Shown here: piece by piece, positions 20,883 to 59,176 of the stretch
Layout of the letters: every line of letters starts with the position of its first letter
Position numbering within the stretch: the first letter of the stretch is position 1
Assembly: GCA_016699245.1 (NCBI GenBank)
Contig: CP064968.1
Span: 448,317-512,316 of the forward strand
DNA from: Candidatus Kaiserbacteria bacterium
GTDB lineage: Bacteria; Patescibacteriota; Minisyncoccia; Phycocordibacterales; UBA918
Direction of reading: 5' to 3'
Length of the DNA: 64,000 nt
Notes under the pieces: generated by a model
Databases searched by the model: none
What the model was told of the DNA's origin: nothing
Seen by the model: only the letters and a program-made list of their open reading frames with translations
Translations under genes and position numbers: made by a program

Positions 20883-21015
20883 GAAAATCCCCTATGTCAA
20901 AGGCGCTGGGGATTATATTTTGAGACCAGGACGGGATTTGAGTCCTACAGACTCCGTTCAGGTTGTAAGATATTTTTTAAAAATATTAACAACCTCTTCA
21001 AATCCCTTGGTCAAG

Positions 21016-21045
21016 AAAAAAACTCCACAGAGTGGAGTTTTTTAC
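21016..21045 (+). terminator. intrinsic terminator of infB-rbfA
   Basis: AAAAACTCCAC-AGA-GTGGAGTTTTTT. Confidence 0.7.
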
Positions 21046-21048
21046 TTG

Positions 21049-22871: not shown

Positions 22872-22918
22872 CTAATTTAAAAAACCACACAATTTTGTGT
22901 GGTTTTTTAAATTAGTCC
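22869..22918. terminator. 23-bp-arm perfect palindrome right after tRNA-Lys (GGACTAATTTAAAAAACCACACA / TGTGTGGTTTTTTAAATTAGTCC)
   Basis: Read directly; second short hairpin GCGAGCAA-TTTGTT-TTGCTCGC follows at 22923-22945. Confidence 0.65.
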
Positions 22919-22945
22919 GCCCAAGCGAGCAATTTGTTTTGCTCG

Positions 22946-23115
22946 CGGCCAGGGATCGAAAACCTTGCGAGGGATTTTGCGAGTGATAACGAAGCAAAAT
23001 ACCCACAAGGCAAAAACGATTCGTTTTTGAAGGTTGTCGAAATTTGTCAAAATTTCCTACAACCTAAACGGAATCTGTAAGATTTACTGGTCATGTAATG
23101 ACCGATTCCCTGGTG
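22946..23115 (+). repeat. structured repeat element family, copy A (core hairpin 23030-23064; CTGTAAG hairpin at 23069-23083)
   Basis: Closing inverted repeat GGCCAGGGATCG...CGATTCCCTGGTGG; about 90 nt roughly 97% identical to copy B. Confidence 0.6.
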
Positions 23116-23380: not shown

Positions 23381-23425
23381 AAAATAACTAATCCTCAGAT
23401 ACTTCTGAGGATTAGTTATTTTTGG
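23381..23425 (+). terminator. terminator hairpin AACTAATCCTCAGA-TACTT-CTGAGGATTAGTT plus T-run
   Basis: Read directly. Confidence 0.7.
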
Positions 23426-23640
23426 TAGAAGACTCGAAGACCTTGTGAGAGATTTTGCGAGTCTCAGTTGCCGGCAGGCAGATGAGACGAAGTAAAATAT
23501 CCACAAGGCAAAAACGATTTGTTTTTGAAGGTTGTCGAAATTTGTCAAAATTTCATACAACCTAAACGGAATCTGTAAGATTTACTGAAACTGTGCCGCG
23601 TTCCAGTGAACGAAAAGTTTCAAGTCCTCTCGCGCCCACC
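23425..23640 (+). repeat. structured repeat element family, copy B (core 23529-23563), ending in a tRNA 3'-end-like GTTTCAAGTCCTCTCGCGCCCAC
   Basis: Begins with antisense of the tRNA-Leu(CAG) T-arm (GTAGAAGACTCGAAGACC); tail CTGTGCCGCGTTCCAGTGAACGAAAAG shared with the 46.7 kb copy. Confidence 0.6.
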
Positions 23641-47830: not shown

Positions 47831-47964
47831 TAAGTTCTATTGGCGGAAGAGGGGGGATTCGTCCTGACGGTCACTAATTCGCTGACGCTCATAAGTGCCG
47901 CGGGACACGACTCGCCGGCCCAGAGGGGCCCCGGCTCCGTCGTTCGAATCCCCCCTCTTCTCGC
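47831..47964. repeat. inverted-repeat element with arms copied from the tRNA-Ser 3' end: TGGCGGAAGAGGGGGGATTCG...(84 nt GC-rich)...CGAATCCCCCCTCTTCTCGC
   Basis: 16-bp perfect arms at 47836-47851 and 47945-47960; the left arm is the exact complement of an acceptor/T-stem 3' end plus CCA (primer-binding-site-like). Confidence 0.6.
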
Positions 47965-48008
47965 AACATGCAACAAACCCAATGCTTTCGCATTGGGTTT
48001 GGCAGTTG

Positions 48009-48095: not shown

Positions 48096-48386
48096 AAATG
48101 TATGAACTATTAAACTAGCATTTTTTCCAATTTTTCGGTAGTATAGCGAGGTTCGGATTGTATTGTCCCTTACTAGGACGAACGAGGTGTCATGTAGGAG
48201 TTTTACTCATACTTGCACCGAGTGACGTCCTAGCAAGCTCTGCTTGCAGGGACTGTACACCTTGTCGATATTTTTCTTCAGCTCACGCCTTGAAAAATAT
48301 CAGGCAAGGTCTTGCGAAAGTCCCCCAGACTTTCTCACCCATCGTCATCGACGATGTGGCCGTACAAAATTCAAAGAATTTCGTCC

Positions 48387-48603
48387 GGCCCCATCGTCTA
48401 ACGGTGGCCAGAAATTAAAGAGCGCAAGCGATTATAATTTCTGAGTGGCCTAGAAGTTACTGAGCGCAAGCGACAATAACTTCTGGTCTGCCTACTTTTT
48501 CTTTCAAAATGAAAAAGTAGGCCAAGTCACTTTTTCTTCTTCCCAGAAGAAAAAGTGACGCACACGGCAAGACTAAAACTACAATGATGCAAAAGGTACA
48601 TAC
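48387..48603 (+). repeat. tRNA-Glu 5' fragment (19 nt, 48387-48405) followed by a four-hairpin cassette (48409-48443, 48452-48484, 48490-48522, 48526-48558)
   Basis: GGCCCCATCGTCTAACGGT is identical to tRNA-Glu nt 1-19; hairpins 1-2 carry GAGCGCAAGCGA loops; hairpins 3-4 have 12-15-bp stems. Confidence 0.6.
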
Positions 48604-48675
48604 GGCCCCATCGTCTAACGGTTAGGACATCAGGTTTTCATCCTGGAAATCGGAGTTCGATTCTCCGTGGGGTCA
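48604..48675 (+). tRNA. tRNA-Glu (TTC)
   Basis: Acceptor GGCCCCA/TGGGGTC, anticodon stem TCAGG/CCTGG, loop TTTTCAT, T-arm CGGAGTTCGATTCTCCG. Confidence 0.7.
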
Positions 48676-50368
48676 CATCCAGAGATTTATCATCTCTATT
48701 CTCATCACTTACCTTGAAAAACAAGGATATTTTAGGTGTTCCACTAAGTACTTCTTTGTAGGTCGGAAACTCCAAGAATAGTATCTTGTAAATTGCCATC
48801 TGTTCGGCATAACTACTTATATCTAGGAACATATCTATAGGGTGTTCCATTAGATTTTTTGAGTACTCTAAGAACAAGGTGACTTCTTCGTAACTCAACT
48901 CAATTTTCTTCCTTTCACCCTGCACTTGTCGTAAATCCATACTTAGTCTTTCAAAATCCCTCTCCATCTCGTCTTTCACCAACTCAGAGTTTGATTTCTT
49001 GATTGCAGTCAGCGTTTCTCTCAGTTCAGATTGGATTCCTGTGATTCTCTGGTTTATTACAATTTGAGTATCAAGCGATTTCTCCTGTTCTTGTTTATGT
49101 TTATGAGTAAGGACTTTTTTTAAGATAGAATGGTACTTATCACTAAACTTAATTTTACTCAAAAAGGTCATCATTGCCTTATCAACCTCACTTTGAGGTT
49201 TCCCGTAATATTTATGTGTACGGCTACAATGATAAAAAGAATATTTCTCCTTATTTTTGCTTGTCGATGGACTTGCTAAAAAAGGTTTTTTACAGACATC
49301 GCACAAGACTACATTCTTAAACAGGTAATCTTTACGGAACTTCTGTCTTCTCTTGAGTATTTTCTCAGGGTTTAAGTCGTAAAAGAGTTTGATTTTGTTT
49401 TCTGGTAATTCCTCAACATACACTTTGCCCTTGTTGGCTTGATTAAACTTCTCGATGCTAACCAATCCCTTGTATTGGGTCTTTGTGATTATTTTCTTTT
49501 TTTGAATCTTGCCCCAATTCTCAATATTGACTCCGCAGTAGATAGGATTTTTCCTGTACTTCTGCATTTGCTTGATTGTAAGTTTATTGCCTACTTTTAC
49601 ACCGATTATTCTTTTGTCACCCTTTTTTCCATTCCAAAGTTTCCTATCTCTTGATTTGTAGCCAAGCGAGTTTATGTGGTCTACGATTTCTTGTTCTGTT
49701 AAAACTCCCTCAACGGTTTTATCAAAAAGAGCAATGATTTGAGGTGCTTCCTGCTCGTGTGGAAGTTGTATTGTTTTTTGCTTTCCGTCATTAGCAAGAA
49801 TAACGACATTTTTATAACCATAATTAGCTTCTCTTAACTTGAAGCCAAGACTAGCTCTTGAGAAGCTCGTGTTTACAGTTCTAGTAAGGATATTTGCAAC
49901 ATCTTCTTTGCCCATCTCTGCAAGCAGTATTTCAGTGATACGACTTGGGCTCTTATTACTCCAATCAAAGGAAATGCCAAGATGTTCAAGAGTGTTTGAT
50001 ATTGGCTGGATTATATTTTGACTATCACGAAGTTCAACACCAAGACTTGCTAATTGGCTTTTTATTAAAAGATATTCTTCACTACCAGAGCGAGTACTCC
50101 TATCAATCCTGTTTATAACAAAATACTTTATTTTGTTAGGATTTTTCTTAATTAAATCAATCAGTTCATTATATTTTGGTCTTTTTGCTACTTCAACTTT
50201 TCTACCAGTAAAGATTTCTCTACTTACTTTCCCATCAGGAAAAAGAGTCCAGTGATTATTCTCGATATGACGCTCAATAGCTTTTATTTGATTCTCTAAG
50301 CCGTCACCCTTAAGCTGACTAGGGTCACTGATTCGAGCATATCCAATTGCGTAGATGGGATGGGTCAT
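48638..50368 (-). CDS. large serine recombinase (phage-type integrase)
   Basis: N-terminal YARISDPSQ catalytic Ser motif, recombinase domain, zinc ribbon CDVCKK...YHCSRT, coiled coil; last 13 codons are antisense to the tRNA-Glu T-arm. Confidence 0.85.
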   Translation of the reverse strand: MTHPIYAIGYARISDPSQLKGDGLENQIKAIERHIENNHWTLFPDGKVSREIFTGRKVEVAKRPKYNELIDLIKKNPNKIKYFVINRIDRSTRSGSEEYLLIKSQLASLGVELRDSQNIIQPISNTLEHLGISFDWSNKSPSRITEILLAEMGKEDVANILTRTVNTSFSRASLGFKLREANYGYKNVVILANDGKQKTIQLPHEQEAPQIIALFDKTVEGVLTEQEIVDHINSLGYKSRDRKLWNGKKGDKRIIGVKVGNKLTIKQMQKYRKNPIYCGVNIENWGKIQKKKIITKTQYKGLVSIEKFNQANKGKVYVEELPENKIKLFYDLNPEKILKRRQKFRKDYLFKNVVLCDVCKKPFLASPSTSKNKEKYSFYHCSRTHKYYGKPQSEVDKAMMTFLSKIKFSDKYHSILKKVLTHKHKQEQEKSLDTQIVINQRITGIQSELRETLTAIKKSNSELVKDEMERDFERLSMDLRQVQGERKKIELSYEEVTLFLEYSKNLMEHPIDMFLDISSYAEQMAIYKILFLEFPTYKEVLSGTPKISLFFKVSDENRDDKSLDVTPRRIELRFPG

Positions 50369-50390
50369 CGCAGTTATATTTTAGCATTTT

Positions 50391-50540
50391 TTATTTCTGA
50401 TTTAGTACTTTCTGTTCAATCCATTTTTTGTAAGCAAAGTTTGCAAAGCTTGTAGAAATACGAAAAAGAGACTCAACTTCTTTTTCTGGAAGATTTTTTA
50501 TATCGTCTGCACAAAGTTTTTTGAACTCCTCCAAGGTCAT
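50391..50540 (-). CDS. small protein (49 aa) just upstream of the recombinase; possible directionality factor
   Basis: Hand translation MTLEEFKKLCADDIKNLPEKEVESLFRISTSFANFAYKKWIEQKVLNQK; 22-nt gap to the integrase start. Confidence 0.3.
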   Translation of the reverse strand: MTLEEFKKLCADDIKNLPEKEVESLFRISTSFANFAYKKWIEQKVLNQK

Positions 50541-50597
50541 TGAAGTAGTGTGTGCTACTTCTAATGCTATAGAGATACTGGAAATGACTAGATTAGT

Positions 50598-51347
50598 TTA
50601 ATCCAGTAAGTGCTTGTTTGCCTCAGCTATTGAACGAATGGAGCCATTACTTAGTTTATTCTTAAATAGTTTTTGAACAAACAAGCAGATGATTTTCTCT
50701 TTTGCTTCTACCGCACTATATCTGTAGATATCCTGTAGATTTCGCTCAAAACCAAGCTCGATTGCTTGTTTTTTAAGTTGTGTCATTTCAGTGAAATAAA
50801 GCGTGGTCACAACCTTGTCTCTAAGTTCGTATTTTTTAGGTTTTAGGTTTGGTAACTTCATTTTACCGAAAGTCTGCTCCTGCTTCTTGAGAATGTTTCT
50901 TGAGTTTTGAGCAATAAAATCCTTGAGATTTTTTATTGAATTATTTGTACCAAAACGGATATAGATACCTTTAGGCAAAGCAATATTATTTTTAGTGAAT
51001 CCGTTTGGTAAACTGAAGACTTCACATCCATAGATGTTAAAGATTTCTCGTGATTTTTCTAATGGATAACCATAGATGAAATACTCAGTCCAAAAGTCCA
51101 CAGAAGACTCGTCTTGGCTAATGAGCGTATCAAACAGCTCTGGATACTTAATGAGCAATTTCGCTCTGTAGAGTGCCATATTTTGGCATATACGATGTAT
51201 GTCGTGTTTAGTCAGGTCAATCTGTTCAGTTCTTAGTCCTCGACTTGGTAAGCCAGCCCTAATACGCAAAAAACCAGCGAGTTTTCTGTTTGCTGGTTTG
51301 TTTAATATCTGAAGAAAACCTGTAACTTGAGACTCAGCTTTTGACAT
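50598..51347 (-). CDS. hypothetical protein (249 aa), island cargo
   Basis: ORF track. Confidence 0.4.
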   Translation of the reverse strand: MSKAESQVTGFLQILNKPANRKLAGFLRIRAGLPSRGLRTEQIDLTKHDIHRICQNMALYRAKLLIKYPELFDTLISQDESSVDFWTEYFIYGYPLEKSREIFNIYGCEVFSLPNGFTKNNIALPKGIYIRFGTNNSIKNLKDFIAQNSRNILKKQEQTFGKMKLPNLKPKKYELRDKVVTTLYFTEMTQLKKQAIELGFERNLQDIYRYSAVEAKEKIICLFVQKLFKNKLSNGSIRSIAEANKHLLD

Positions 51348-51378
51348 ACTGATATTCTAACAGTTTCGGTCTCAAATC

Positions 51379-51537
51379 TTAATTCTGAAAAAATCTCAGA
51401 AAAAGAAAGATTATTTGAATGCCAATAAATAACACCGCCCCGCCAATGATTAGACCAGCAAAGCAAGCTGATAAGAAACCTATTATTTCAGCAAGATTAA
51501 AAAATGCCGTAACAATTTTGTGTGCAAGTGCTTCCAT
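51379..51537 (-). CDS. small hydrophobic protein (52 aa, 2 TM)
   Basis: Hand translation MEALAHKIVTAFFNLAEIIGFLSACFAGLIIGGAVLFIGIQIIFLFLRFFQN. Confidence 0.3.
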   Translation of the reverse strand: MEALAHKIVTAFFNLAEIIGFLSACFAGLIIGGAVLFIGIQIIFLFLRFFQN

Positions 51538-51539
51538 AT

Positions 51540-52475
51540 TTATCGCCAAAACATCAACTGCTTAAAAAAGCCAACCACTTTCTGCACAAAATCCTCTTGT
51601 GGTTGCTCTGGCGTAGGTATTTCTTCAACCACTGGAAGTTGAGTAACTGGAGTTGTTGTAGGAGCCACTAAAACCTCCGACAGTTCTTTTGGCTCAGGTG
51701 GAGCTATATCAGGCGTCACAAGTGGTTTTTGAGCTATTGCGGGTGATACCACTGACACCTCCTTTGGAAGCGACTCAAGATACTCATCGTGCTGTGCTGT
51801 ACCCTCCTTTCCGTTCGGGTATTTTTGGTAATACAGAACCGCAATTCTGTCAGAAATATCAGGTCTGCTCGCTTTTATTCTCCCAAAGAAGTCTCTGGCG
51901 TCTGCGAGGGATAGTGAATCCATATAGACAAATCCTTCGTAAATATCAGCATCAGTGAATACCTCAGGGGTACTGTATGACTCCATCTGCTCATCAAGGA
52001 GCTCTTGATATTCCTCAATCTGTGAGAGGTTTTGCTTTTGTAACTCTAGGATTTGCTGACGTAATTTTTCAGCCTCTTTCTCAGCTTTTGCAAGAGCAGA
52101 GACTTCTGACGAGTGCTCATCTTTCTCGTCTTCAAGTTCACTTATTTGGGCATCGTACTTTGCATCAATCTCAGCAAGCTTGGCATCGAGTTGATTCCCG
52201 ATACCATAGCTTCCGTACAGTCCCGTAACATATCGCTTCTCCGTATCACGCTCTGCTTCAAGTGCTTTAATACGAGCATTGATAGTATCGACTGAAACCT
52301 GAGGACTGTTTGCGATTTGTGCCTCAAGCGTTTGGAGTCGATACTCCAGAGCTGAGAGTGCTTCATTCTGCTTTATCCCTACATCAGCAGGGAGATAGTT
52401 GTAGTCGGTGGCGTGTGCTACTGAGAAAAGACATAGGAAAAGTAATGTCGATATTGAAAAGGTTGTTTTTTGCAT
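51540..52475 (-). CDS. secreted coiled-coil protein
   Basis: Start moved to MQKTTFSISTLLFLCLFSVAHA (signal peptide); long EAEK-rich coiled coil. Confidence 0.45.
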   Translation of the reverse strand: MQKTTFSISTLLFLCLFSVAHATDYNYLPADVGIKQNEALSALEYRLQTLEAQIANSPQVSVDTINARIKALEAERDTEKRYVTGLYGSYGIGNQLDAKLAEIDAKYDAQISELEDEKDEHSSEVSALAKAEKEAEKLRQQILELQKQNLSQIEEYQELLDEQMESYSTPEVFTDADIYEGFVYMDSLSLADARDFFGRIKASRPDISDRIAVLYYQKYPNGKEGTAQHDEYLESLPKEVSVVSPAIAQKPLVTPDIAPPEPKELSEVLVAPTTTPVTQLPVVEEIPTPEQPQEDFVQKVVGFFKQLMFWR

Positions 52476-52502
52476 AGGGATGGGTTTGCAATTTAGGCAG
52501 GA

Positions 52503-52610
52503 ACATAAAGCTCCCCGCCAGTGATGCCTTGCGACACCTGTACCTGTTTCCAGATACAACCCATCCCTGAGTGCTCTGACGAGGAGCTTTATATCAGGGA
52601 TGGGTTTTAT
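52503..52610 (-). promoter_or_regulatory. leader region with mutually exclusive hairpins (attenuator or riboswitch-like)
   Basis: AAAGCTCCCCGCCAG (52507-52521) pairs with CTGACGAGGAGCTTT (52576-52590); overlapping stem AACCCATCCCTGA (52557-52569) / TCAGGGATGGGTT (52595-52607). Confidence 0.35.
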
Positions 52611-52738
52611 TTGTACCGTATCTTGCCGAGGCAAGACCTTAGGTAACTATGTTGTGGCTGGTAATTTTATTTCATCTGTGGATTGATAATATCAAAAAAT
52701 CCCGCTATAGACCAGCTTATTTTCTGCTTTATTTTTTA

Positions 52739-53122
52739 CTACATACGCTCAATCACCCTATCTGCAATTGCACTGTAGTCAAATCCAAATGCTGGAAAAT
52801 CAGAAACTGGCTCTTTTTCAAAATGTGGGTCTAACGAGAAGTCTTTCTTGAACTTACGCTCAAGAAGCCACGCATTTGCTTTCCAGTCCTTTTCACCTGC
52901 TTTTTCTATTTTCTTCATCATCTTACGCTTGTACTCGATTGCTTTTTGACCCATCTGCTCCGAAAACTCCGATTTTGTACGCTTCCAATTACACAAAGTA
53001 TCCTCGTTAATACCAGCGAGCATAGAAGCATCTCTTTGAGTCATTCCATCACCTAGGGCTTCGAGAATGATTGCGACCCTCTCAGGGGTCATTTTATAGG
53101 GTTTAGGGGCTATGTCGTTCAT
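52739..53122 (-). CDS. HTH-domain protein (phage terminase small-subunit-like or regulator)
   Basis: MTPERVAIILEALGDGMTQRDASMLAGINEDTLCNW helix-turn-helix. Confidence 0.4.
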   Translation of the reverse strand: MNDIAPKPYKMTPERVAIILEALGDGMTQRDASMLAGINEDTLCNWKRTKSEFSEQMGQKAIEYKRKMMKKIEKAGEKDWKANAWLLERKFKKDFSLDPHFEKEPVSDFPAFGFDYSAIADRVIERM

Positions 53123-53217
53123 AGAGTAACCACTGGTTATCTGATAATGAACGATTTAGTTTTGGCTTACTTTTATTATAGCAAATACGACCTCAATAAT
53201 GTTAAACTTTAAGGGTT

Positions 53218-53802
53218 ATGGAAATTAAATTATTTTTTGGGATAGCATCATCTATTCTTGCTGTTGTGTGTTTCGCCCCTTACATAAGGGACATTTTGAA
53301 GCGAAAGACTGAGCCACATACATATTCGTGGCTTGTATGGACAATCTTGCAGACAGTTGGCGTTATGGCACAACTGAAAGAGGGTGCTGGATACGGGGCT
53401 TGGGCTCTTGGGATTGGTGCTGTATTTTGTTTTGCTATCTTCCTACTCTCTTTCAAATATGGAACAAAGAACATTTCAAAGTTTGATGGATTTTGTCTCC
53501 TCGCCTCACTCGTTGCTATCGTCATTTATTTCACTATTGAAAATCCTGTGTGGGCGATTATAGCTGTATCGCTCATAGACTTCGTAGGTTTTTTACCTAC
53601 TTTCCGAAAGGGTTATCAAGAGCCATTTACAGAGACAGCAAGCACTTTCTTAATGAGTGGAACTGCAAATGTTTTGAGTATTATTGCTCTCCAAAACTAT
53701 AATGTGACAACTGTCCTCTATATCGGAAGTCTCTTTTTCACAAATATGTCTTTTGTATTGATGATTGTAGCCAGAAGAAAGTTACTTAAAAAGTCCGTAT
53801 GA
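53218..53802 (+). CDS. hypothetical 6-TM membrane protein
   Basis: ORF track. Confidence 0.4.
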   Translation: MEIKLFFGIASSILAVVCFAPYIRDILKRKTEPHTYSWLVWTILQTVGVMAQLKEGAGYGAWALGIGAVFCFAIFLLSFKYGTKNISKFDGFCLLASLVAIVIYFTIENPVWAIIAVSLIDFVGFLPTFRKGYQEPFTETASTFLMSGTANVLSIIALQNYNVTTVLYIGSLFFTNMSFVLMIVARRKLLKKSV

Positions 53803-54122
53803 GTTCCTTAAACGTAAAGCTTGTTGTTTTTGTACCTCTTACACATACCGATATTGTGCGTACTGCTTTAGGTGAGGCTGGTGCTGGAAAAATTGGAAAC
53901 TATGATTTTTGCTCATTCTCCACAAGAGGAATTGGACGCTTTCAGGGTAACGAAAAAACAAATCCTAGTGTCGGTACAGCTGGAGTGTACGAGTCAGTGG
54001 AAGAAGACCGAATTGAAGTTTTAGTGCCTAGAGCAATTCTCAAAGATGTTATTGACAGAGTCAAAGCAGTACACCCTTATGAAGAAGTGGCTTTTGATAT
54101 TTATCCATTAGAAGACTTTTAA
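53799..54122 (+). CDS. NIF3-insert/YqfO-like small alpha/beta protein
   Basis: VKLVVFVP...HPYEEVAFDIYPL pattern; overlaps neighbours by 4 nt. Confidence 0.35.
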   Translation: MSSLNVKLVVFVPLTHTDIVRTALGEAGAGKIGNYDFCSFSTRGIGRFQGNEKTNPSVGTAGVYESVEEDRIEVLVPRAILKDVIDRVKAVHPYEEVAFDIYPLEDF

Positions 54123-54124
54123 CT

Positions 54125-55423
54125 ATGTCTGTATCACCATTAGATACAGCATATAATCGCCTAGACGAGGCACACAGAGCTTGGCACACTGCACTTGATG
54201 GTTATCATCGAATTGACGATTTTCGAGCTGGAATAAATACAGCAATTCAAGCACTCAGAAACCTCACTTTTGCACTCCAGAAGCAGAAAGATAACTTGCC
54301 TGACTTTGATATTTGGTACGCTGGTTGGCAAGAAAAAATGCGAGTCAATCCGATACTCAAAGAGCTTCACGAGGCTAGAAATGTCATTGTAAAACAGGAA
54401 GATTTGAAACTTCATAGTGTCGCCACCGCAAGAACAAAAGGTTGGATAGATTTTCAGAAAATGGCTTTTACTTTTGACCCAACTAAAGATAGCTATGATG
54501 TCGCACAAGGCTTCTACAATACTTTCGCAAGGCACTTGCCAGTTGCGGAGGAAATTAAAAGTAGGCTCGTATTTGAGTTTGAAAGAAAATGGGTCTATGA
54601 CAAATTACCTGAGTACGAACTACTCAATGCAATTACTCAGGCATACTATTTTTTCTCTGAAATGCTCGTTGATGCAAGTCAAAGATTTGCTTTACCACAA
54701 AGAGAAAATCATAGTACTGGAGACTATTGCTCTGGCGAGCTGAATGACAAAAATCTATTGAAATGTATGGTGCTTACGCAACAAGAGCGTTGCTTAATTT
54801 TTAGTTTTGAAGATGGAGCAACTATCAAGGCACATACTGAAAGTATTCAACGTGACTCTGTTCATCTTGATAAAGTCCGTGAAAAATATGGTGACGAGTG
54901 GAAATCAGAAGCAACCCTCTCCCTGTTAGATGGTTTATTTCCTACAGAGTACCCATTTTCTCAAATGAAGCTTTTTGCCCAAGTAGCAGTGAGTAATCTC
55001 AAAAAAGACAAATATCTTGTTCCTACTACTTTTATTTTTAAGGGAATTGACGATGTTCCTGTAGTTATAGCCCATCCATTTCAGAATCAGGAACAAAAAG
55101 TGATGACAATGGATTTGATTTCTAGTTCAATCATTAAGAATAATGGGAAGTTCGTGCTCACCATAGCTGAAGTTTGGCAGTATGATTTCAACGATGGAAA
55201 GCCACTGATACCAACTCACGAAAATACGAATGGGGCAAAAGATATATTTGATATTTCCTGCATTTCATCAGAAAAGTTAAAGGTGATACACATACCTTTC
55301 CACAAAAATATCTTCGGAAAAATCATATTTTCAGAACCTACAGTTGAAGATGTATCAACTGACGAACATACGCACTACATACTTCAGCCACTTATTGATG
55401 CACTCAAACAGGTTAGTAAGTAG
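54125..55423 (+). CDS. hypothetical protein (432 aa), island cargo
   Basis: ORF track; no recognisable motif. Confidence 0.4.
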   Translation: MSVSPLDTAYNRLDEAHRAWHTALDGYHRIDDFRAGINTAIQALRNLTFALQKQKDNLPDFDIWYAGWQEKMRVNPILKELHEARNVIVKQEDLKLHSVATARTKGWIDFQKMAFTFDPTKDSYDVAQGFYNTFARHLPVAEEIKSRLVFEFERKWVYDKLPEYELLNAITQAYYFFSEMLVDASQRFALPQRENHSTGDYCSGELNDKNLLKCMVLTQQERCLIFSFEDGATIKAHTESIQRDSVHLDKVREKYGDEWKSEATLSLLDGLFPTEYPFSQMKLFAQVAVSNLKKDKYLVPTTFIFKGIDDVPVVIAHPFQNQEQKVMTMDLISSSIIKNNGKFVLTIAEVWQYDFNDGKPLIPTHENTNGAKDIFDISCISSEKLKVIHIPFHKNIFGKIIFSEPTVEDVSTDEHTHYILQPLIDALKQVSK

Positions 55424-55725
55424 TTCTACTACCTATCTGTTTGGAGTTTGCTGAAGCAAGATTTGTTAATTGAGCTTAATTTGCTACACATTCTCTATCT
55501 GCAAGAAGCTTGAGTTGTAGGCTTGGACACCAGTACAAGATTTCTTGCCACCTAATAACCTCATCCTGTAAGGTGTTCCAGTCAAGGCTCTGTAGGGTCA
55601 TGCAAGCAATCGCCGCCTTCGGGCGGCTTTTGCATGACCCCACGAGTAAACAGTTTGGGAGACTGTTTACGGGAGAATCGAAGCTGATACCTACCACCAA
55701 TTTCTATGACACCTATTTCTGCATG

Positions 55726-55763
55726 CTTACCGTATATTGTACACCTGTTACATATACGGTAAG
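55726..55763 (+). terminator. near-palindrome CTTACCGTATATTGTACA-CC-TGTTACATATACGGTAAG plus T-run; paralog of 23733-23776
   Basis: Read directly. Confidence 0.6.
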
Positions 55764-55821
55764 TGCTTTTTTAGTGCATAAAAAAATCCTGGGGTGCGCC
55801 CATGCACACATTACAACATTA

Positions 55822-56540: not shown

Positions 56541-56578
56541 AAGGTTAAACCTCGGGCTAGCCCGAGGTTTAACCTTTT
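56541..56578 (+). terminator. 17-bp-stem palindrome AAGGTTAAACCTCGGG-CTAG-CCCGAGGTTTAACCTT plus T; identical copy at 59658-59697
   Basis: Read directly. Confidence 0.75.
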
Positions 56579-57664: not shown

Positions 57665-57749
57665 ATATCACCATATAACCGATACTATAATTTGCACTTT
57701 AGTGTATACTGCTCACTTAAATTATTATTACAATACTGAAATATACGTT

Positions 57750-59176
57750 ATGAAGAAGTGTTTTAACTCAAAAACTAAAATCGTCGCGACGCTCGGGCCT
57801 AATTCCACAGACGTAAAAGTAATCGAAAAGATGATTCTTTCGGGACTTAATGTGGCACGTATCAATATGAGCCATGGTGATTATACCGAGCATGCGCTCA
57901 AGATTAAAAATGCGCGCGCCGCTGCCGCAACTCTGAAACGACCACTTGCAATTCTTCAGGACCTCTCTGGCCCGAAAATTCGCATCGGTGACTTTGCAAC
58001 GGAGACGGTGACGCTCGTCCCCGGAGAAAAAATTACGCTCACCACAGAAAAATGCGTGGGGACGGTGTCTCGTGTATCACTCAACTACGCAAAACTTCCC
58101 AAGGAAGTAGAGCCCGGAATGGCGATTTTCCTCAATGATGGCAAATTAAAACTTGTGGTTGACTCATGCACCGACACCGAAATAGTAACCACTATCATTC
58201 ACGGAGGCACGATTCGCGGACGACGCGGAGTGAATGTACCCGATGCAAATCTCTCTATCTCTTCTCTCACACCAAAAGACAAAAAGATCTCGTGTGGGGA
58301 CTCACACAGAATCCTGACTTTGTTACTCTTTCCTTTGTGCGAAATGCAGCAGACATTCATCTGCTTCGAAAACTCATTAACAAGGACAAGAAACGACAAA
58401 TCATGATTGTTGCAAAAATTGAGACGAAGTATGCTATCGAAAACTTGCAGGAAATTATCGATGCAACCGATGCAGTGATGGTAGCTCGTGGCGACCTTGC
58501 TATTGAAGTTCCTCCAGAAAAGGTACCTCTTCTCCAAAAGCGCATCATTCGTGCTGCAAACCTTGCAGGAAAGCCAGTCATTACTGCCACACAGATGCTC
58601 GACTCAATGAAGACAGAGGCAACACCTACGCGTGCTGAAGTAAGCGATATCGCAAACGCAATCCTCGATGGTACTGATGCCATCATGCTTTCTGATGAAA
58701 CCGCAATCGGTGTTCATCCTGAGCGTCCTGTGGAGGTAATGTCACGAGTTGCGCGTGAAGTAGAGACAGATGCATTCTTTAGCGAACGAATGACCCAGTG
58801 GGAATTCAAAGCAAAAGAGACGTACGAGGCACTTGGAAAGTCGGTTGCAAAGACAGTTATCACCACCGATGCAAAGGCTATTGTAACCTTTAGTGAAAGT
58901 GGTCTCACAAGCCGTATGGTAGCAAGATACAAGCCGATTGTGCCAATCTTTGTACTCACACCCAACAAGGCAGCATATGCTCAGAGTCTTATATCTTTCG
59001 GATGTGAACCAGTACTTATTCATAAAGTACAGAATCTCGCTGATGCGCAAAAGGTGGCGCGTAAGGTACTCTCTGAGTACAATGTCGCGACTAAGGGGGA
59101 TGTGTTTGTACTCGGCGCGGGAATTCCCTTTGGAAGTTCTGGTGCAACCAATATGATGCTCGTTGAGCGAATCTAA
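57750..59176 (+). CDS. pyk: pyruvate kinase, interrupted by a 1-nt frameshift in the A5 run at 58281-58285
   Basis: KIVATLGP, NMSHG; one extra A restores LTPKDKKDLVWGLTQNPDFVTLSFVR. Confidence 0.85.

What the first reader, a model, noticed from the sequence alone, without database searches (positions are those of the whole stretch)
48604..55800. Serine-recombinase island at tRNA-Glu carrying uncharacterised cargo; candidate novel accessory or defence module
The large serine recombinase ends antisense inside tRNA-Glu; its last codons PRRIELRFPG are the reverse complement of the T-arm. Cargo follows: a 49-aa putative directionality factor, a 249-aa protein, a 52-aa 2-TM protein, a secreted coiled-coil protein with a structured leader, an HTH protein, a 6-TM protein, a small NIF3-insert-like protein and a 432-aa protein with no recognisable domain. 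The region is visibly AT-richer than its flanks by eye (composition not computed) and ends near a palindromic terminator/att-like site. None of the cargo matches known housekeeping functions. The 6-TM, small and 432-aa trio (53218-55423, overlapping or abutting) is a plausible unstudied phage-defence or exclusion operon.
Basis: partly seen in the sequence, partly recalled or inferred. Interest (0 to 1): 0.6.

Follow-up and report, generated by a model that had tools for sequence, protein, structure and literature searches.

The report
Serine-recombinase island in tRNA-Glu, Parcubacteria
A 6.9-kb mobile island sits in the last six bases of a tRNA-Glu gene in a Candidatus Kaiserbacteria genome; its cargo is a shuffled mix of genes and not a demonstrable defence operon, and it places the orphan "LOOT" RNA in a concrete biological setting.

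Summary
A large serine recombinase (LSR, 48638-50368, minus strand) ends antisense inside tRNA-Glu(UUC) (48604-48676). The region has 38.3% GC against 44.8% for the rest of the window.

An unoccupied tRNA-Glu site from a metagenome and a second insertion, independent by its flank and cargo, fix both ends. The crossover lies within GGGTCA (48670-48675 and 55595-55600), giving a 6,925-bp island.

The island is a mosaic:
- **Recombination module:** LSR, a 49-aa protein and a 249-aa protein. Two other tRNA-Glu islands share it but carry different cargo.
- **Backbone:** A tRNA-Asn island with an unrelated LSR shares this backbone.
- **Swappable slot:** a 7-helix membrane protein with a SWEET/PQ-loop-like fold and a stand-alone NIF3-insert domain.

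The proposed three-gene defence operon is not a unit and has no PADLOC hit. Only the Ea47-family protein keeps circumstantial links to defence.

LOOT RNA lies close to a recombinase in nearly all the elements I examined. I found no report of this.

The parts
48604..48676 (+). tRNA-Glu(UUC). It is the chromosomal B arm of attL and stays intact after integration.
   Evidence: ARAGORN; Rfam tRNA 60.4 bits
48670..48675 (.). attL core GGGTCA, the last 6 nt of the tRNA. attL matches the empty site up to here and diverges immediately after.
   Evidence: Three-way alignment of attB (L027), attL and attR; four-element attL alignment
48638..50368 (-). Large serine recombinase, 576 aa. It has a YARIS motif near the N-terminus. 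The ORF crosses attL, so the ten residues PRRIELRFPG and the stop codon are read from the tRNA antisense strand.
   Evidence: Pfam Resolvase 3.4e-12, Recombinase and Zn_ribbon_recom weak; phrog_95 integrase 2.4e-34; 71% identity to the L033 LSR, 39% to L034, 30% to L022
50391..50540 (-). 49-aa protein that travels with the LSR. It is a candidate directionality factor; this is an inference.
   Evidence: 76% identity in L033 and 51% in L034, always between the 249-aa gene and the LSR; no family hit
50598..51347 (-). 249-aa protein of unknown function, part of the recombination module.
   Evidence: 74% identity in L033 and L034, 36% in L003, always next to the recombinase; 14 homologues, none annotated and none with a Pfam domain; no PDB match
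51379..51549 (-). 56-aa ORF with two hydrophobic segments, overlapping the end of the coiled-coil gene by 10 nt.
   Evidence: ORF list; the hydrophobic segments were read from the sequence, with no family hit
51540..52475 (-). Secreted coiled-coil protein, 311 aa counted from ATG 52475. Its N-terminus, MQKTTFSISTLLFLCLFSVAHA, looks like a signal peptide.
   Evidence: ORF and sequence; 42% identical homologue directly downstream of LOOT in L003; only coiled-coil noise in the family searches
52502..52645 (-). LOOT RNA. The Rfam model covers 52523-52645. A further 20-bp helix pairs LOOT positions 51-70 with the 3' flank. The RNA ends 47 nt upstream of the coiled-coil ORF.
   Evidence: RF03000 74.7 bits, gathering score 46.4; 3' helix ([I22], 68, 104)
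52739..53122 (-). 127-aa HTH protein resembling a terminase small subunit.
   Evidence: phrog_4102 'terminase small subunit' 3.6e-17; weak Pfam HTH_Tnp_1 and HTH_28; 61% identity in L003 and 35% in L022
53218..53802 (+). 194-aa membrane protein with 7 helices and a SWEET/PQ-loop-like fold. It occupies the swappable cargo slot.
   Evidence: AF2 pLDDT 91.7; Foldseek AtSWEET13 TM 0.60, KDEL receptor 0.57, cystinosin 0.56, all at probability 1.0; replaced in L021; last gene of the tRNA-Val island in L022
53799..54122 (+). 107-aa stand-alone NIF3 insert (PII-like) domain. It overlaps the upstream gene by 4 nt.
   Evidence: PDB 2gx8 residues 163-261 E 2.3e-31; 2nyd E 5.9e-11; 85% identity in L021
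54125..55423 (+). 432-aa protein of the phage-lambda Ea47 family (PF26900), function unknown. It is the last gene of the island.
   Evidence: tblastn to lambda ea47, 28% identity over aa 12-174, E 2e-9; phrog_19262 4.5e-14; homologues precomputed as PF26900; AF2 pLDDT 90.2; no PDB fold match; only uncharacterised phage proteins in BFVD
55560..55594 (+). P arm of attP, the element's right end: CTCATCCTGTAAGGTGTTCCAGTCAAGGCTCTGTA.
   Evidence: Conserved in L033 (CCTGTAGGGTGTTCCA..AAGG..CTGTA); L022 carries TAAGGTGTTCCAGT before its own tRNA-Val repeat
55595..55600 (.). attR core GGGTCA. From here on the window matches the empty site.
55601..55682 (+). Outside the island: the displaced native tRNA-Glu terminator (stem 55612-55627), then an inverted copy of the tRNA 3' end split by a hairpin (55635-55644 and 55672-55682).
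   Evidence: Near-identical to L027 positions 34-100, directly after an intact tRNA-Glu 3' end

Best explanation
The region is a 6,925-bp integrative island in a Candidatus Kaiserbacteria (Parcubacteria, CPR) chromosome.

**Integration.** A large serine recombinase inserted the island into the last six bases (GGGTCA) of tRNA-Glu(UUC).
- Shown: attL equals the empty site up to GGGTCA, and attR equals it from GGGTCA onward.
- Shown: the tRNA stays intact because only the core is duplicated.
- Shown: the tRNA's own terminator is displaced 6.9 kb downstream.
- Shown: attP overlaps the 3' end of the recombinase gene. In the integrated state the last ten codons and the stop come from the tRNA antisense strand.
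- Inferred: in an excised circle the ORF would read 39 different codons from the P arm.

**Composition.** The island is a mosaic of three modules that are exchanged among related elements.
1. LSR, the 49-aa protein (candidate directionality factor, inferred), the 249-aa protein and the att arms.
2. LOOT RNA, the secreted coiled-coil protein, the small membrane protein, the TerS-like HTH protein and the Ea47-family protein.
3. A variable slot, here holding a SWEET/PQ-loop-like membrane protein (probable small-solute transporter, inferred from fold) and a PII-like NIF3 insert protein.

**What it most likely does (inferred).** It is a small, possibly still mobile element that carries accessory genes. 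It has no capsid, large terminase, replication or conjugation genes of its own. I read the LOOT RNA as the element's own regulatory RNA, placed between the recombination module and the cargo operons.
For: **Island status and ends**
- LSR identity.
- Composition.
- Empty site and three-way att alignment.
- A second insertion into tRNA-Glu(ttc), independent by its different B' flank and cargo: LSR 71%, 49-aa 76%, 249-aa 74% identity, conserved P arm, and homology to the window ending exactly at GGGTCA.
- A third member at tRNA-Glu(ctc) (L034) and a fourth at tRNA-Val (L022). In both, the LSR ORF also ends inside the tRNA. L022 also carries a P-arm motif next to a 10-nt copy of the tRNA end.

**Backbone module**
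- Shared with a tRNA-Asn island that has an unrelated LSR: 249-aa 36%, coiled-coil 42%, HTH 61%, Ea47 60% identity, plus LOOT.

**Variable slot**
- R.HinP1I plus a methylase in L003.
- NUDIX plus a 135-aa protein in L021.
- An Mrr-like protein plus methyltransferases in L034.
- A HAD hydrolase plus an SDH-type protease in L033.
- The same membrane protein in L022.

**LOOT context**
- Eleven LOOT copies in ten distinct elements. Nine of the ten copies whose context was held lie within 3 kb of a recombinase gene and one lies about 6 kb away. For the eleventh (L032) only 2.7 kb was held and its neighbours were not examined.
- Absent from the 11 non-island control loci scanned.
Against: - No excised circle or attP junction was observed, so current mobility is not shown.
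- The empty site comes from a different metagenome, not from the same strain.
- The crossover dinucleotide cannot be placed more precisely than the 6-nt block.
- Pfam Recombinase (19.2 bits, cut-off 21.1) and Zn_ribbon_recom (18.6 bits, cut-off 25.3) fall below their curated cut-offs. No solved LSR matched by sequence.
- LOOT is missing from the two islands closest in their recombination module, L033 and L034. It belongs to the backbone module, not to the recombinase.
- Six of the nine cargo proteins have no assigned function.
- The transporter reading rests on fold resemblance with weak Foldseek E-values (0.04-0.07) and no sequence-family hit.
Confidence: 0.78

Rival explanations
1. It is a decayed prophage remnant that can no longer move. 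The Ea47-like and TerS-like genes would be leftovers of a once complete temperate phage of a Parcubacteria host.
For: - Two proteins have phage relatives: lambda Ea47 and phrog_4102 terminase small subunit.
- The island has no structural, replication or lysis genes.
- Larger relatives carry an S49 prohead-protease-like gene, Terminase_2, a ParB-methylase or a TerL-like gene (L017, L025, L030).
Against: - The LSR ORF is intact, and both att arms are conserved between independent insertions.
- The same small backbone recurs, under selection, in another genome with a different LSR and a different tRNA target.
- The slot content turns over between close relatives.
- IMG/VR holds no relative of the LSR, the 249-aa protein or the HTH protein.
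Confidence: 0.2
2. It is a phage satellite of the PICI/SaPI kind. It would integrate with its own recombinase and use its TerS-like protein to divert a helper phage's packaging machinery.
For: - It combines an integrase with a small-terminase-like HTH protein and has no large terminase or capsid genes.
- It is small.
- Its modular backbone is conserved in L003 and L022.
Against: - The TerS call rests on one PHROG family. Pfam Terminase_2 is not hit, and the best Pfam hits are transposase-type HTH domains.
- There is no primase or replication module, no capsid-remodelling gene, and no known helper phage.
- tblastn of the HTH protein against 50,697 phage records found nothing.
Confidence: 0.1
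3. 53218-55423 is a new three-gene anti-phage defence or exclusion operon.
For: - The three genes are tightly packed (4-nt overlap, then a 2-nt gap).
- Ea47 homologues elsewhere sit beside Shedu SduA_C, restriction-modification, Mrr, UvrD and PIF1 genes.
- Ea47-family members are fused to SEC-C and TPR-S sensor repeats.
- The slot holds restriction systems in sister elements.
Against: - The trio is not conserved. The membrane protein is swapped out in L021, and the 107-aa protein is absent from every other Ea47 locus.
- There are no real PADLOC hits.
- The membrane protein has a transporter fold and is 55-88% identical across Parcubacteria.
- The 107-aa protein is a NIF3 insert domain.
Confidence: 0.07

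Closest known systems
Large-serine-recombinase integrative elements (phiC31, Bxb1 and A118 prophages; SCCmec; Tn5397/Tn4451). Comparison from my own knowledge.
   Same: - One LSR with Resolvase, Recombinase and zinc-ribbon domains.
- attL and attR share only a very short core, here at most 6 nt.
- A small gene next to the recombinase could be the directionality factor.
   Different: - The target is the extreme 3' end of a tRNA gene, which is the usual habit of tyrosine integrases and not of LSRs. Three literature searches found no description of this for Parcubacteria.
- The ORF reads across attL into the tRNA.
- The host is a CPR bacterium.
- The element is only 6.9 kb.
tRNA-targeting genomic islands with tyrosine integrases. 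Comparison from my own knowledge.
   Same: - The island sits at the 3' end of a tRNA with the integrase gene next to it.
- It has lower GC than the chromosome and variable cargo.
- It lies in tandem with a small integrase-less module at the same tRNA.
   Different: - The recombinase belongs to the serine family.
- The identity block is 6 nt, against the usual 15-60 nt.
- The element does not need to carry a replacement tRNA 3' half.
Myxophage Mx8, where attP lies within the int gene (intP becomes intX). From my own knowledge.
   Same: attP overlaps the 3' end of the integrase gene, so integration changes the C-terminal residues of the enzyme.
   Different: - Mx8 Int is a tyrosine recombinase.
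- Here any functional consequence of the tail swap (10 residues against 39) is untested and may be incidental.
Phage lambda b-region gene ea47 (Pfam PF26900)
   Same: - The 432-aa protein is a homologue.
- In both cases the gene is a non-structural accessory gene of an integrating element.
   Different: - Identity is only 28% over the N-terminal 160 residues.
- The function of lambda Ea47 is itself unknown.
LOOT RNA motif (Rfam RF03000; Weinberg et al. 2017, PMC5737381)
   Same: Full-length match to the model, well above the gathering score.
   Different: - From memory, Rfam and Wikipedia describe it as a metagenome-only putative sRNA with no assigned organism.
- Here it lies in Parcubacteria integrative elements, 30-160 nt upstream of an ORF.
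- It has an extra covarying 3' helix and a U tract that the model does not cover.
PICI/SaPI phage satellites
   Same: An integrase together with a small-terminase-like protein in a small island that has no capsid genes.
   Different: - No replication module.
- No helper phage is known.
- The TerS assignment is weak (see the membership test).

Membership tests
Large serine recombinase | N-terminal resolvase catalytic domain with a serine nucleophile | tested here: met
   Pfam Resolvase E 3.4e-12, 47.1 bits against a cut-off of 23.3, residues 7-118. The YARIS motif at residues 10-14 is read from the sequence.
Large serine recombinase | Recombinase domain and zinc-ribbon domain C-terminal to the catalytic domain | tested here: inconclusive
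   Both are found in the right order, but both fall below the curated cut-offs: 19.2 against 21.1 bits and 18.6 against 25.3 bits. PHROG integrase family phrog_95 matches residues 2-495 at 2.4e-34.
Large serine recombinase | attL, attR and attB share only a very short crossover core | tested here: met
   The shared block is GGGTCA, 6 nt.
Large serine recombinase | Catalyses attP x attB recombination | not testable with these tools
   Needs an in vitro or in vivo assay, or junction reads.
Pfam PF26900 Phage_lambda_Ea47 | Sequence homology to lambda Ea47 | tested here: met
   tblastn to lambda ea47 E 2e-9. phrog_19262 4.5e-14. All 38 homologues are precomputed as PF26900. The local Pfam copy did not return the family.
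Rfam RF03000 LOOT | Covariance-model score above the gathering threshold over the full model | tested here: met
   74.7 bits against 46.4, model positions 1-121.
NIF3 (DUF34, GTP cyclohydrolase I type 2) family | NIF3 core fold with a dinuclear metal site | tested here: not met
   Only the inserted PII-like domain is present (107 aa; 2gx8 residues 163-261). Pfam NIF3 is not hit.
SWEET / PQ-loop transporters | A 3+1+3 bundle of seven membrane helices | tested here: met
   The AF2 model has 7 helices at pLDDT 91.7. Foldseek gives TM 0.56-0.60 and probability 1.0 to AtSWEET13, the KDEL receptor and cystinosin.
SWEET / PQ-loop transporters | Sequence-family membership (Pfam MtN3_slv or PQ-loop) | tested here: not met
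   No Pfam or NCBIfam hit. A profile search against PDB sequences found nothing.
Known anti-phage defence systems (PADLOC-DB 2.0) | A match to a defence-protein model | tested here: not met
   Only coiled-coil noise on the secreted protein, one sub-threshold REase_II match on the flanking DUF305 gene, and nothing for 53218-55423.
Terminase small subunit | A TerS family match with a partner large terminase | tested here: inconclusive
   phrog_4102 3.6e-17. Pfam Terminase_2 is not hit, there is no TerL in the island, and no phage record matched.
PICI-type phage satellite | Integrase, replication module, packaging-redirection genes and dependence on a helper phage | tested here: inconclusive
   An integrase is present and a TerS-like protein is weakly supported. 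No primase or replication gene was found. Helper dependence cannot be tested here.

The most novel reading that the evidence does not exclude
The LOOT RNA, the Ea47-family protein, the TerS-like HTH protein and the secreted coiled-coil protein would form the backbone of an unrecognised class of small mobile elements in CPR bacteria, possibly satellite-like. In this reading LOOT is the element's regulatory switch. The short modules found at the 3' end of many tRNA genes (terminator, hairpin-split inverted copy of the tRNA's own 3' end, conserved core, direct repeat) would be integrase-less miniature derivatives that occupy or prepare the same attachment sites. Swapping the recombinase's C-terminal tail on integration could distinguish the integrated enzyme from the excised one.
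Probability: 0.15. Interest if true: 0.7.

Novelty: new variant of a known kind. Interest (0 to 1): 0.45.

Why it matters
- **CPR mobile elements.** Mobile elements of CPR/Patescibacteria are poorly described. This analysis gives base-pair boundaries, an empty site, four related insertions and a modular map for one family.
- **Unusual recombinase target.** The large serine recombinases here target the very end of tRNA genes. The reconstructed attP and attB pairs could be tested as new integration tools.
- **LOOT RNA.** An orphan Rfam RNA gains a host lineage (Parcubacteria) and a setting (next to recombinases in integrative elements). Its function becomes testable.
- **Ea47 family.** The family of lambda's long-unexplained ea47 gene is very large: 3,133 clusters at 50% identity. 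It recurs in defence-rich islands and is sometimes fused to sensor-type repeats. That is a lead on a 40-year-old unknown gene.
- **Limits.** The specific claim of a new three-gene defence operon does not hold. The island as such is an ordinary kind of object.

Tried and rejected
- **Displaced tRNA 3' half at the far end.** No copy exists within 3 mismatches. The tRNA-like stretch at 55560-55594 is not a decayed tRNA half, because sequence immediately downstream is about 98% identical to the empty site. The same motif also recurs in L033 and L022, so it is the element's P arm.
- **Crossover in the T loop, or in the centre of the big palindrome.** Rejected by the three-way alignment.
- **Synteny route to an empty site.** I used the left-flank 265-aa protein in GTDB genomes. 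Relatives keep a tRNA-Ser next door, but none keeps the tRNA-Glu, so this gave nothing.
- **IMG/VR scans** with the HTH protein, the 249-aa protein and the LSR found no relatives. An Ea47 profile found one distant hit.
- **PDB sequence searches** for Ea47, the membrane protein, the 249-aa protein, the LSR and the HTH protein found nothing useful.
- **LOOT as a simple RBS-sequestering leader.** An 11-12-nt repeat lies next to the start codon in the window (and in L004) but is absent from the other copies examined.
- **Exact-sequence look-up of the Ea47-like protein** was not on record.
- **LOOT literature.** The motif is not discussed in the main text of the discovery paper, and no supplements are held.

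Full report
**1. What is in the window**

ARAGORN finds tRNA-Glu(ttc) at 48604-48676 (+). A 576-aa ORF at 48638-50368 (-) overlaps its 3' part, and its last residues (PRRIELRFPG) are antisense to the T arm and acceptor end. The ORF is a large serine recombinase (LSR). It hits Pfam Resolvase at 3.4e-12, and Recombinase and Zn_ribbon_recom weakly and in the right order. It also hits PHROG integrase family phrog_95 at 2.4e-34. The region has 38.3% GC against 44.8% for the rest of the window, lower than any of 174 same-size windows elsewhere.

Flanking genes are ordinary chromosomal ones: thioredoxin-reductase-like, VIT1, FtsA, FtsZ, DUF305/CopM, a sigma-70 factor, pyruvate kinase and an ABC transporter. 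Exact matches to NCBI proteins IPH92_02395 and IPH92_02410 place the window on a 1.05-Mb contig of a Candidatus Kaiserbacteria bacterium (Parcubacteria, CPR).

**2. Boundaries**

No intact copy of the tRNA 3' half lies at the far end. I then noticed an inverted, hairpin-split copy of the tRNA 3' end at 55635-55682. A metagenome scan for 'tRNA-Glu 3' end, 10-40 nt, TGACCCCACG' returned two contigs, L027 and L028. In both, an intact tRNA-Glu 3' end is followed directly by the sequence found at window 55601-55682.

A three-way alignment gives the junctions:
- attL matches this empty site up to ...CTCCGTGGGGTCA and then diverges.
- attR differs before ...GTAGGGTCA and is about 98% identical from GGGTCA onward.
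- The crossover therefore lies within GGGTCA (48670-48675 and 55595-55600), and the island is 6,925 bp.

A second line of evidence comes from L033. It carries a related element (LSR 71%, 49-aa 76%, 249-aa 74% identity) in tRNA-Glu(ttc) of another genome. Its P arm (CCTGTAGGGTGTTCCA..AAGG..CTGTA|GGGTCA) is conserved with the window's, and the similarity stops exactly at GGGTCA. Beyond that point lies a different terminator.

Two further relatives show the same layout. L034 sits at tRNA-Glu(ctc) with an LSR 39% identical. L022 sits at tRNA-Val with an LSR 30% identical. In both, the LSR ORF ends inside the tRNA. L022 also has the motif TAAGGTGTTCCAGT just before a 10-nt copy of the tRNA end.

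The 35 nt at 55560-55594 resemble the tRNA 3' half (about 67% identity). I interpret them as the element's P arm and not as a decayed tRNA fragment, for the reasons given above.

Because the crossover is at the tRNA's end, the tRNA is wholly chromosomal. The LSR ORF therefore crosses attL. In an excised circle it would read ...DVTLQSLDWNTLQDEVIRWQEILYWCPSLQLKLLADRECVAN*, that is 39 residues in place of 10. I derived this from the sequence and the ORF list. Whether the difference matters is unknown.

**3. The cargo, gene by gene**

- **49-aa and 249-aa proteins.** They have no family or structure match. They travel with the LSR in L033 and L034, and more distantly in L003. The 249-aa protein has only 14 homologues, all unannotated. 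The 49-aa protein may be a directionality factor; this is an inference.
- **The 'structured leader'.** It is a full-length LOOT RNA (RF03000, 74.7 bits against a gathering score of 46.4) at 52523-52645 (-). It lies 47 nt upstream of the true start (ATG 52475) of a secreted coiled-coil protein, whose N-terminus looks like a signal peptide.
- **127-aa HTH protein.** It matches PHROG 'terminase small subunit' phrog_4102 at 3.6e-17. It does not match Pfam Terminase_2 or any phage record.
- **194-aa membrane protein.** It models confidently (pLDDT 91.7) as seven helices. Its best structural matches are AtSWEET13, the KDEL receptor and cystinosin (TM 0.56-0.60, probability 1.0, E 0.04-0.07). It has at least 279 homologues at 55-88% identity across Parcubacteria.
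- **107-aa protein.** It is a stand-alone NIF3 insert domain (2gx8 residues 163-261, E 2.3e-31).
- **432-aa protein.** It belongs to PF26900 Phage_lambda_Ea47. Its model (pLDDT 90.2) has no PDB match and resembles only uncharacterised phage proteins.
- **PADLOC.** No real hit for any protein.

**4. Comparison with relatives shows a mosaic**

L003 is a tRNA-Asn island in another Parcubacteria genome, and its LSR is barely related to the window's. It nevertheless shares the 249-aa (36%), coiled-coil (42%), HTH (61%) and Ea47 (60%) proteins, plus LOOT. Between the HTH and Ea47 genes it carries R.HinP1I and a DNA methylase, where the window has the membrane and NIF3-insert genes.

L021 is a close relative of the window (86% nucleotide identity). 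It keeps the 107-aa and Ea47 genes but replaces the membrane gene with a NUDIX protein and a 135-aa protein that weakly resembles a nucleoside deoxyribosyltransferase. L033 and L034 share the recombination module but carry quite different cargo: a HAD hydrolase with an SDH-type protease, and an Mrr-like protein with methyltransferases. They lack LOOT, the coiled-coil gene and Ea47. In L022 the same membrane protein (88% identity) is the last gene of a tRNA-Val island.

So the element consists of a recombination module, a LOOT/Ea47 backbone and a variable slot.

Ea47 homologues elsewhere follow varied upstream partners: Shedu SduA_C at a 9-nt spacing, a DEAD helicase, or unknown 606-aa and 171-aa proteins. 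One sits among ribosomal genes with no integrase nearby. The family is large, with 3,133 clusters at 50% identity. Some members are fused to SEC-C motifs, TPR/TPR-S repeats or DUF5677. This suggests a role in conflict systems but is circumstantial. Lambda Ea47 itself has no known function.

**5. LOOT RNA**

LOOT occurs in every island that came in through an Ea47 homologue and holds a recombinase: L001, L003, L004/L005, L017 (two copies) and L020. It also occurs in L022 and in three IMG/VR contigs found with a LOOT sequence pattern (L030-L032). L030 and L031 have an LSR within 3 kb and carry GmrSD, a KAP NTPase, a ParB-methylase and a TerL-like gene. Only 2.7 kb of L032 was held, and I did not examine its neighbours.

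LOOT is absent from L019, where Ea47 sits in a housekeeping context, from L033 and L034, and from the 11 non-island control loci scanned. It always lies 30-160 nt upstream of an ORF on the same strand, and those ORFs are unrelated to one another.

In 9 of 11 copies, a 10-20-bp helix pairs LOOT positions 51-74 with the 20 nt just past the Rfam model. The helix sequence differs between copies. In most copies CUUUUUG follows it. This looks like a built-in terminator or pseudoknot and fits a discrete RNA of about 145 nt. I found no description of this context in the literature held.

**6. How it most likely works**

Shown by the evidence:
- The identity of the recombinase.
- The exact junctions.
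- An empty site.
- Independent insertions.
- Module exchange between elements.

Inferred:
- The LSR integrates a circular form at GGGTCA.
- The 49-aa protein directs excision.
- LOOT regulates the cargo side.
- The membrane protein imports a small solute, which could benefit a CPR host that depends on scavenging.
- The Ea47-like protein acts in phage-host conflict.

The island has no transfer, replication or capsid genes. Spread would need a helper or natural transformation, and the satellite reading stays a minority option.

**7. Verdict**

As an object it is a known kind of thing with unusual features: an LSR that targets the end of a tRNA, an ORF that crosses attL, and a LOOT RNA hallmark in a CPR host. 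I searched the literature for Parcubacteria or CPR integrative elements and for LSRs at tRNA genes and found no prior description. The library is incomplete, so this is not proof of novelty.

Noticed in passing
window 20930-21047, 22873-23110, 23381-23600, 47843-48007, 55601-55800; L001 3825-3906; L003 12150-12330; L022 4820-5070; L027 34-203: Many tRNA genes are followed by a structured module. It consists of a palindromic terminator, an inverted copy of that tRNA's own acceptor-3' strand and T arm (where both are present they are split by a 23-27-nt hairpin), a conserved core, and then a 10-20-nt direct repeat of the tRNA 3' end in most copies. The cores after tRNA-Lys and tRNA-Leu(cag) share about 130 nt. 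The motif CTGnTCATGTAATGA recurs at tRNA-Lys, at tRNA-Glu in L027 and at tRNA-Asn in L003. L027 and L028 diverge right after the repeat. There is no Rfam match. These could be miniature integrase-less elements or an RNA transcribed with the tRNA. Unexplained.
   Followed up: partly
window 52502-52522 and the equivalent 3' flanks in L001, L003, L004, L017, L022, L030, L032: LOOT RNAs have a covarying 10-20-bp helix between the top of the central hairpin and the 3' flank, usually followed by CUUUUUG. The Rfam model does not include it.
   Followed up: partly
window 48386-48603: A 20-nt exact copy of the 5' end of tRNA-Glu (CGGCCCCATCGTCTAACGGT) lies 217 bp upstream of the gene. The interval holds a 42-nt tandem repeat (48410-48493) and two further perfect or near-perfect hairpins (48490-48522 and 48526-48559).
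   Followed up: no
window 57702-59176: Pyruvate kinase is split into two overlapping ORFs in different frames (57702-58406 and 58166-59176), both with PK barrel-domain hits. This is a frameshift, a sequencing error or a pseudogene.
   Followed up: no
window 56541-56576: A perfect 36-nt palindrome (AAGGTTAAACCTCGGGCT/AGCCCGAGGTTTAACCTT) lies between the DUF305/CopM gene and the sigma-factor gene.
   Followed up: no
window 51540-52645 compared with L003 6185-7691: The LOOT and coiled-coil segment is on the same strand as the LSR in the window but on the opposite strand in L003. The segment has therefore been inverted or inserted in the other orientation between related elements.
   Followed up: no
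L017 1-21296: One Zambryskibacteria contig holds two LSR genes, two LOOT RNAs, two Terminase_2-like genes, an internal tRNA, an S49 protease and an Ea47 homologue. This looks like two elements in tandem.
   Followed up: no
L030 1244-4347; L025 2436-4681: Some elements holding LOOT or the 194-aa membrane protein carry a ParB-N6/N4 methylase with a gpA-like large terminase or an S49 protease. Larger relatives may therefore be true prophages of Parcubacteria.
   Followed up: no
window 48638-48640: The LSR stop codon TGA is the reverse complement of TCA in the tRNA anticodon loop (the last two anticodon bases plus position 37). The chromosome therefore supplies the stop codon in the integrated state.
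   Followed up: yes
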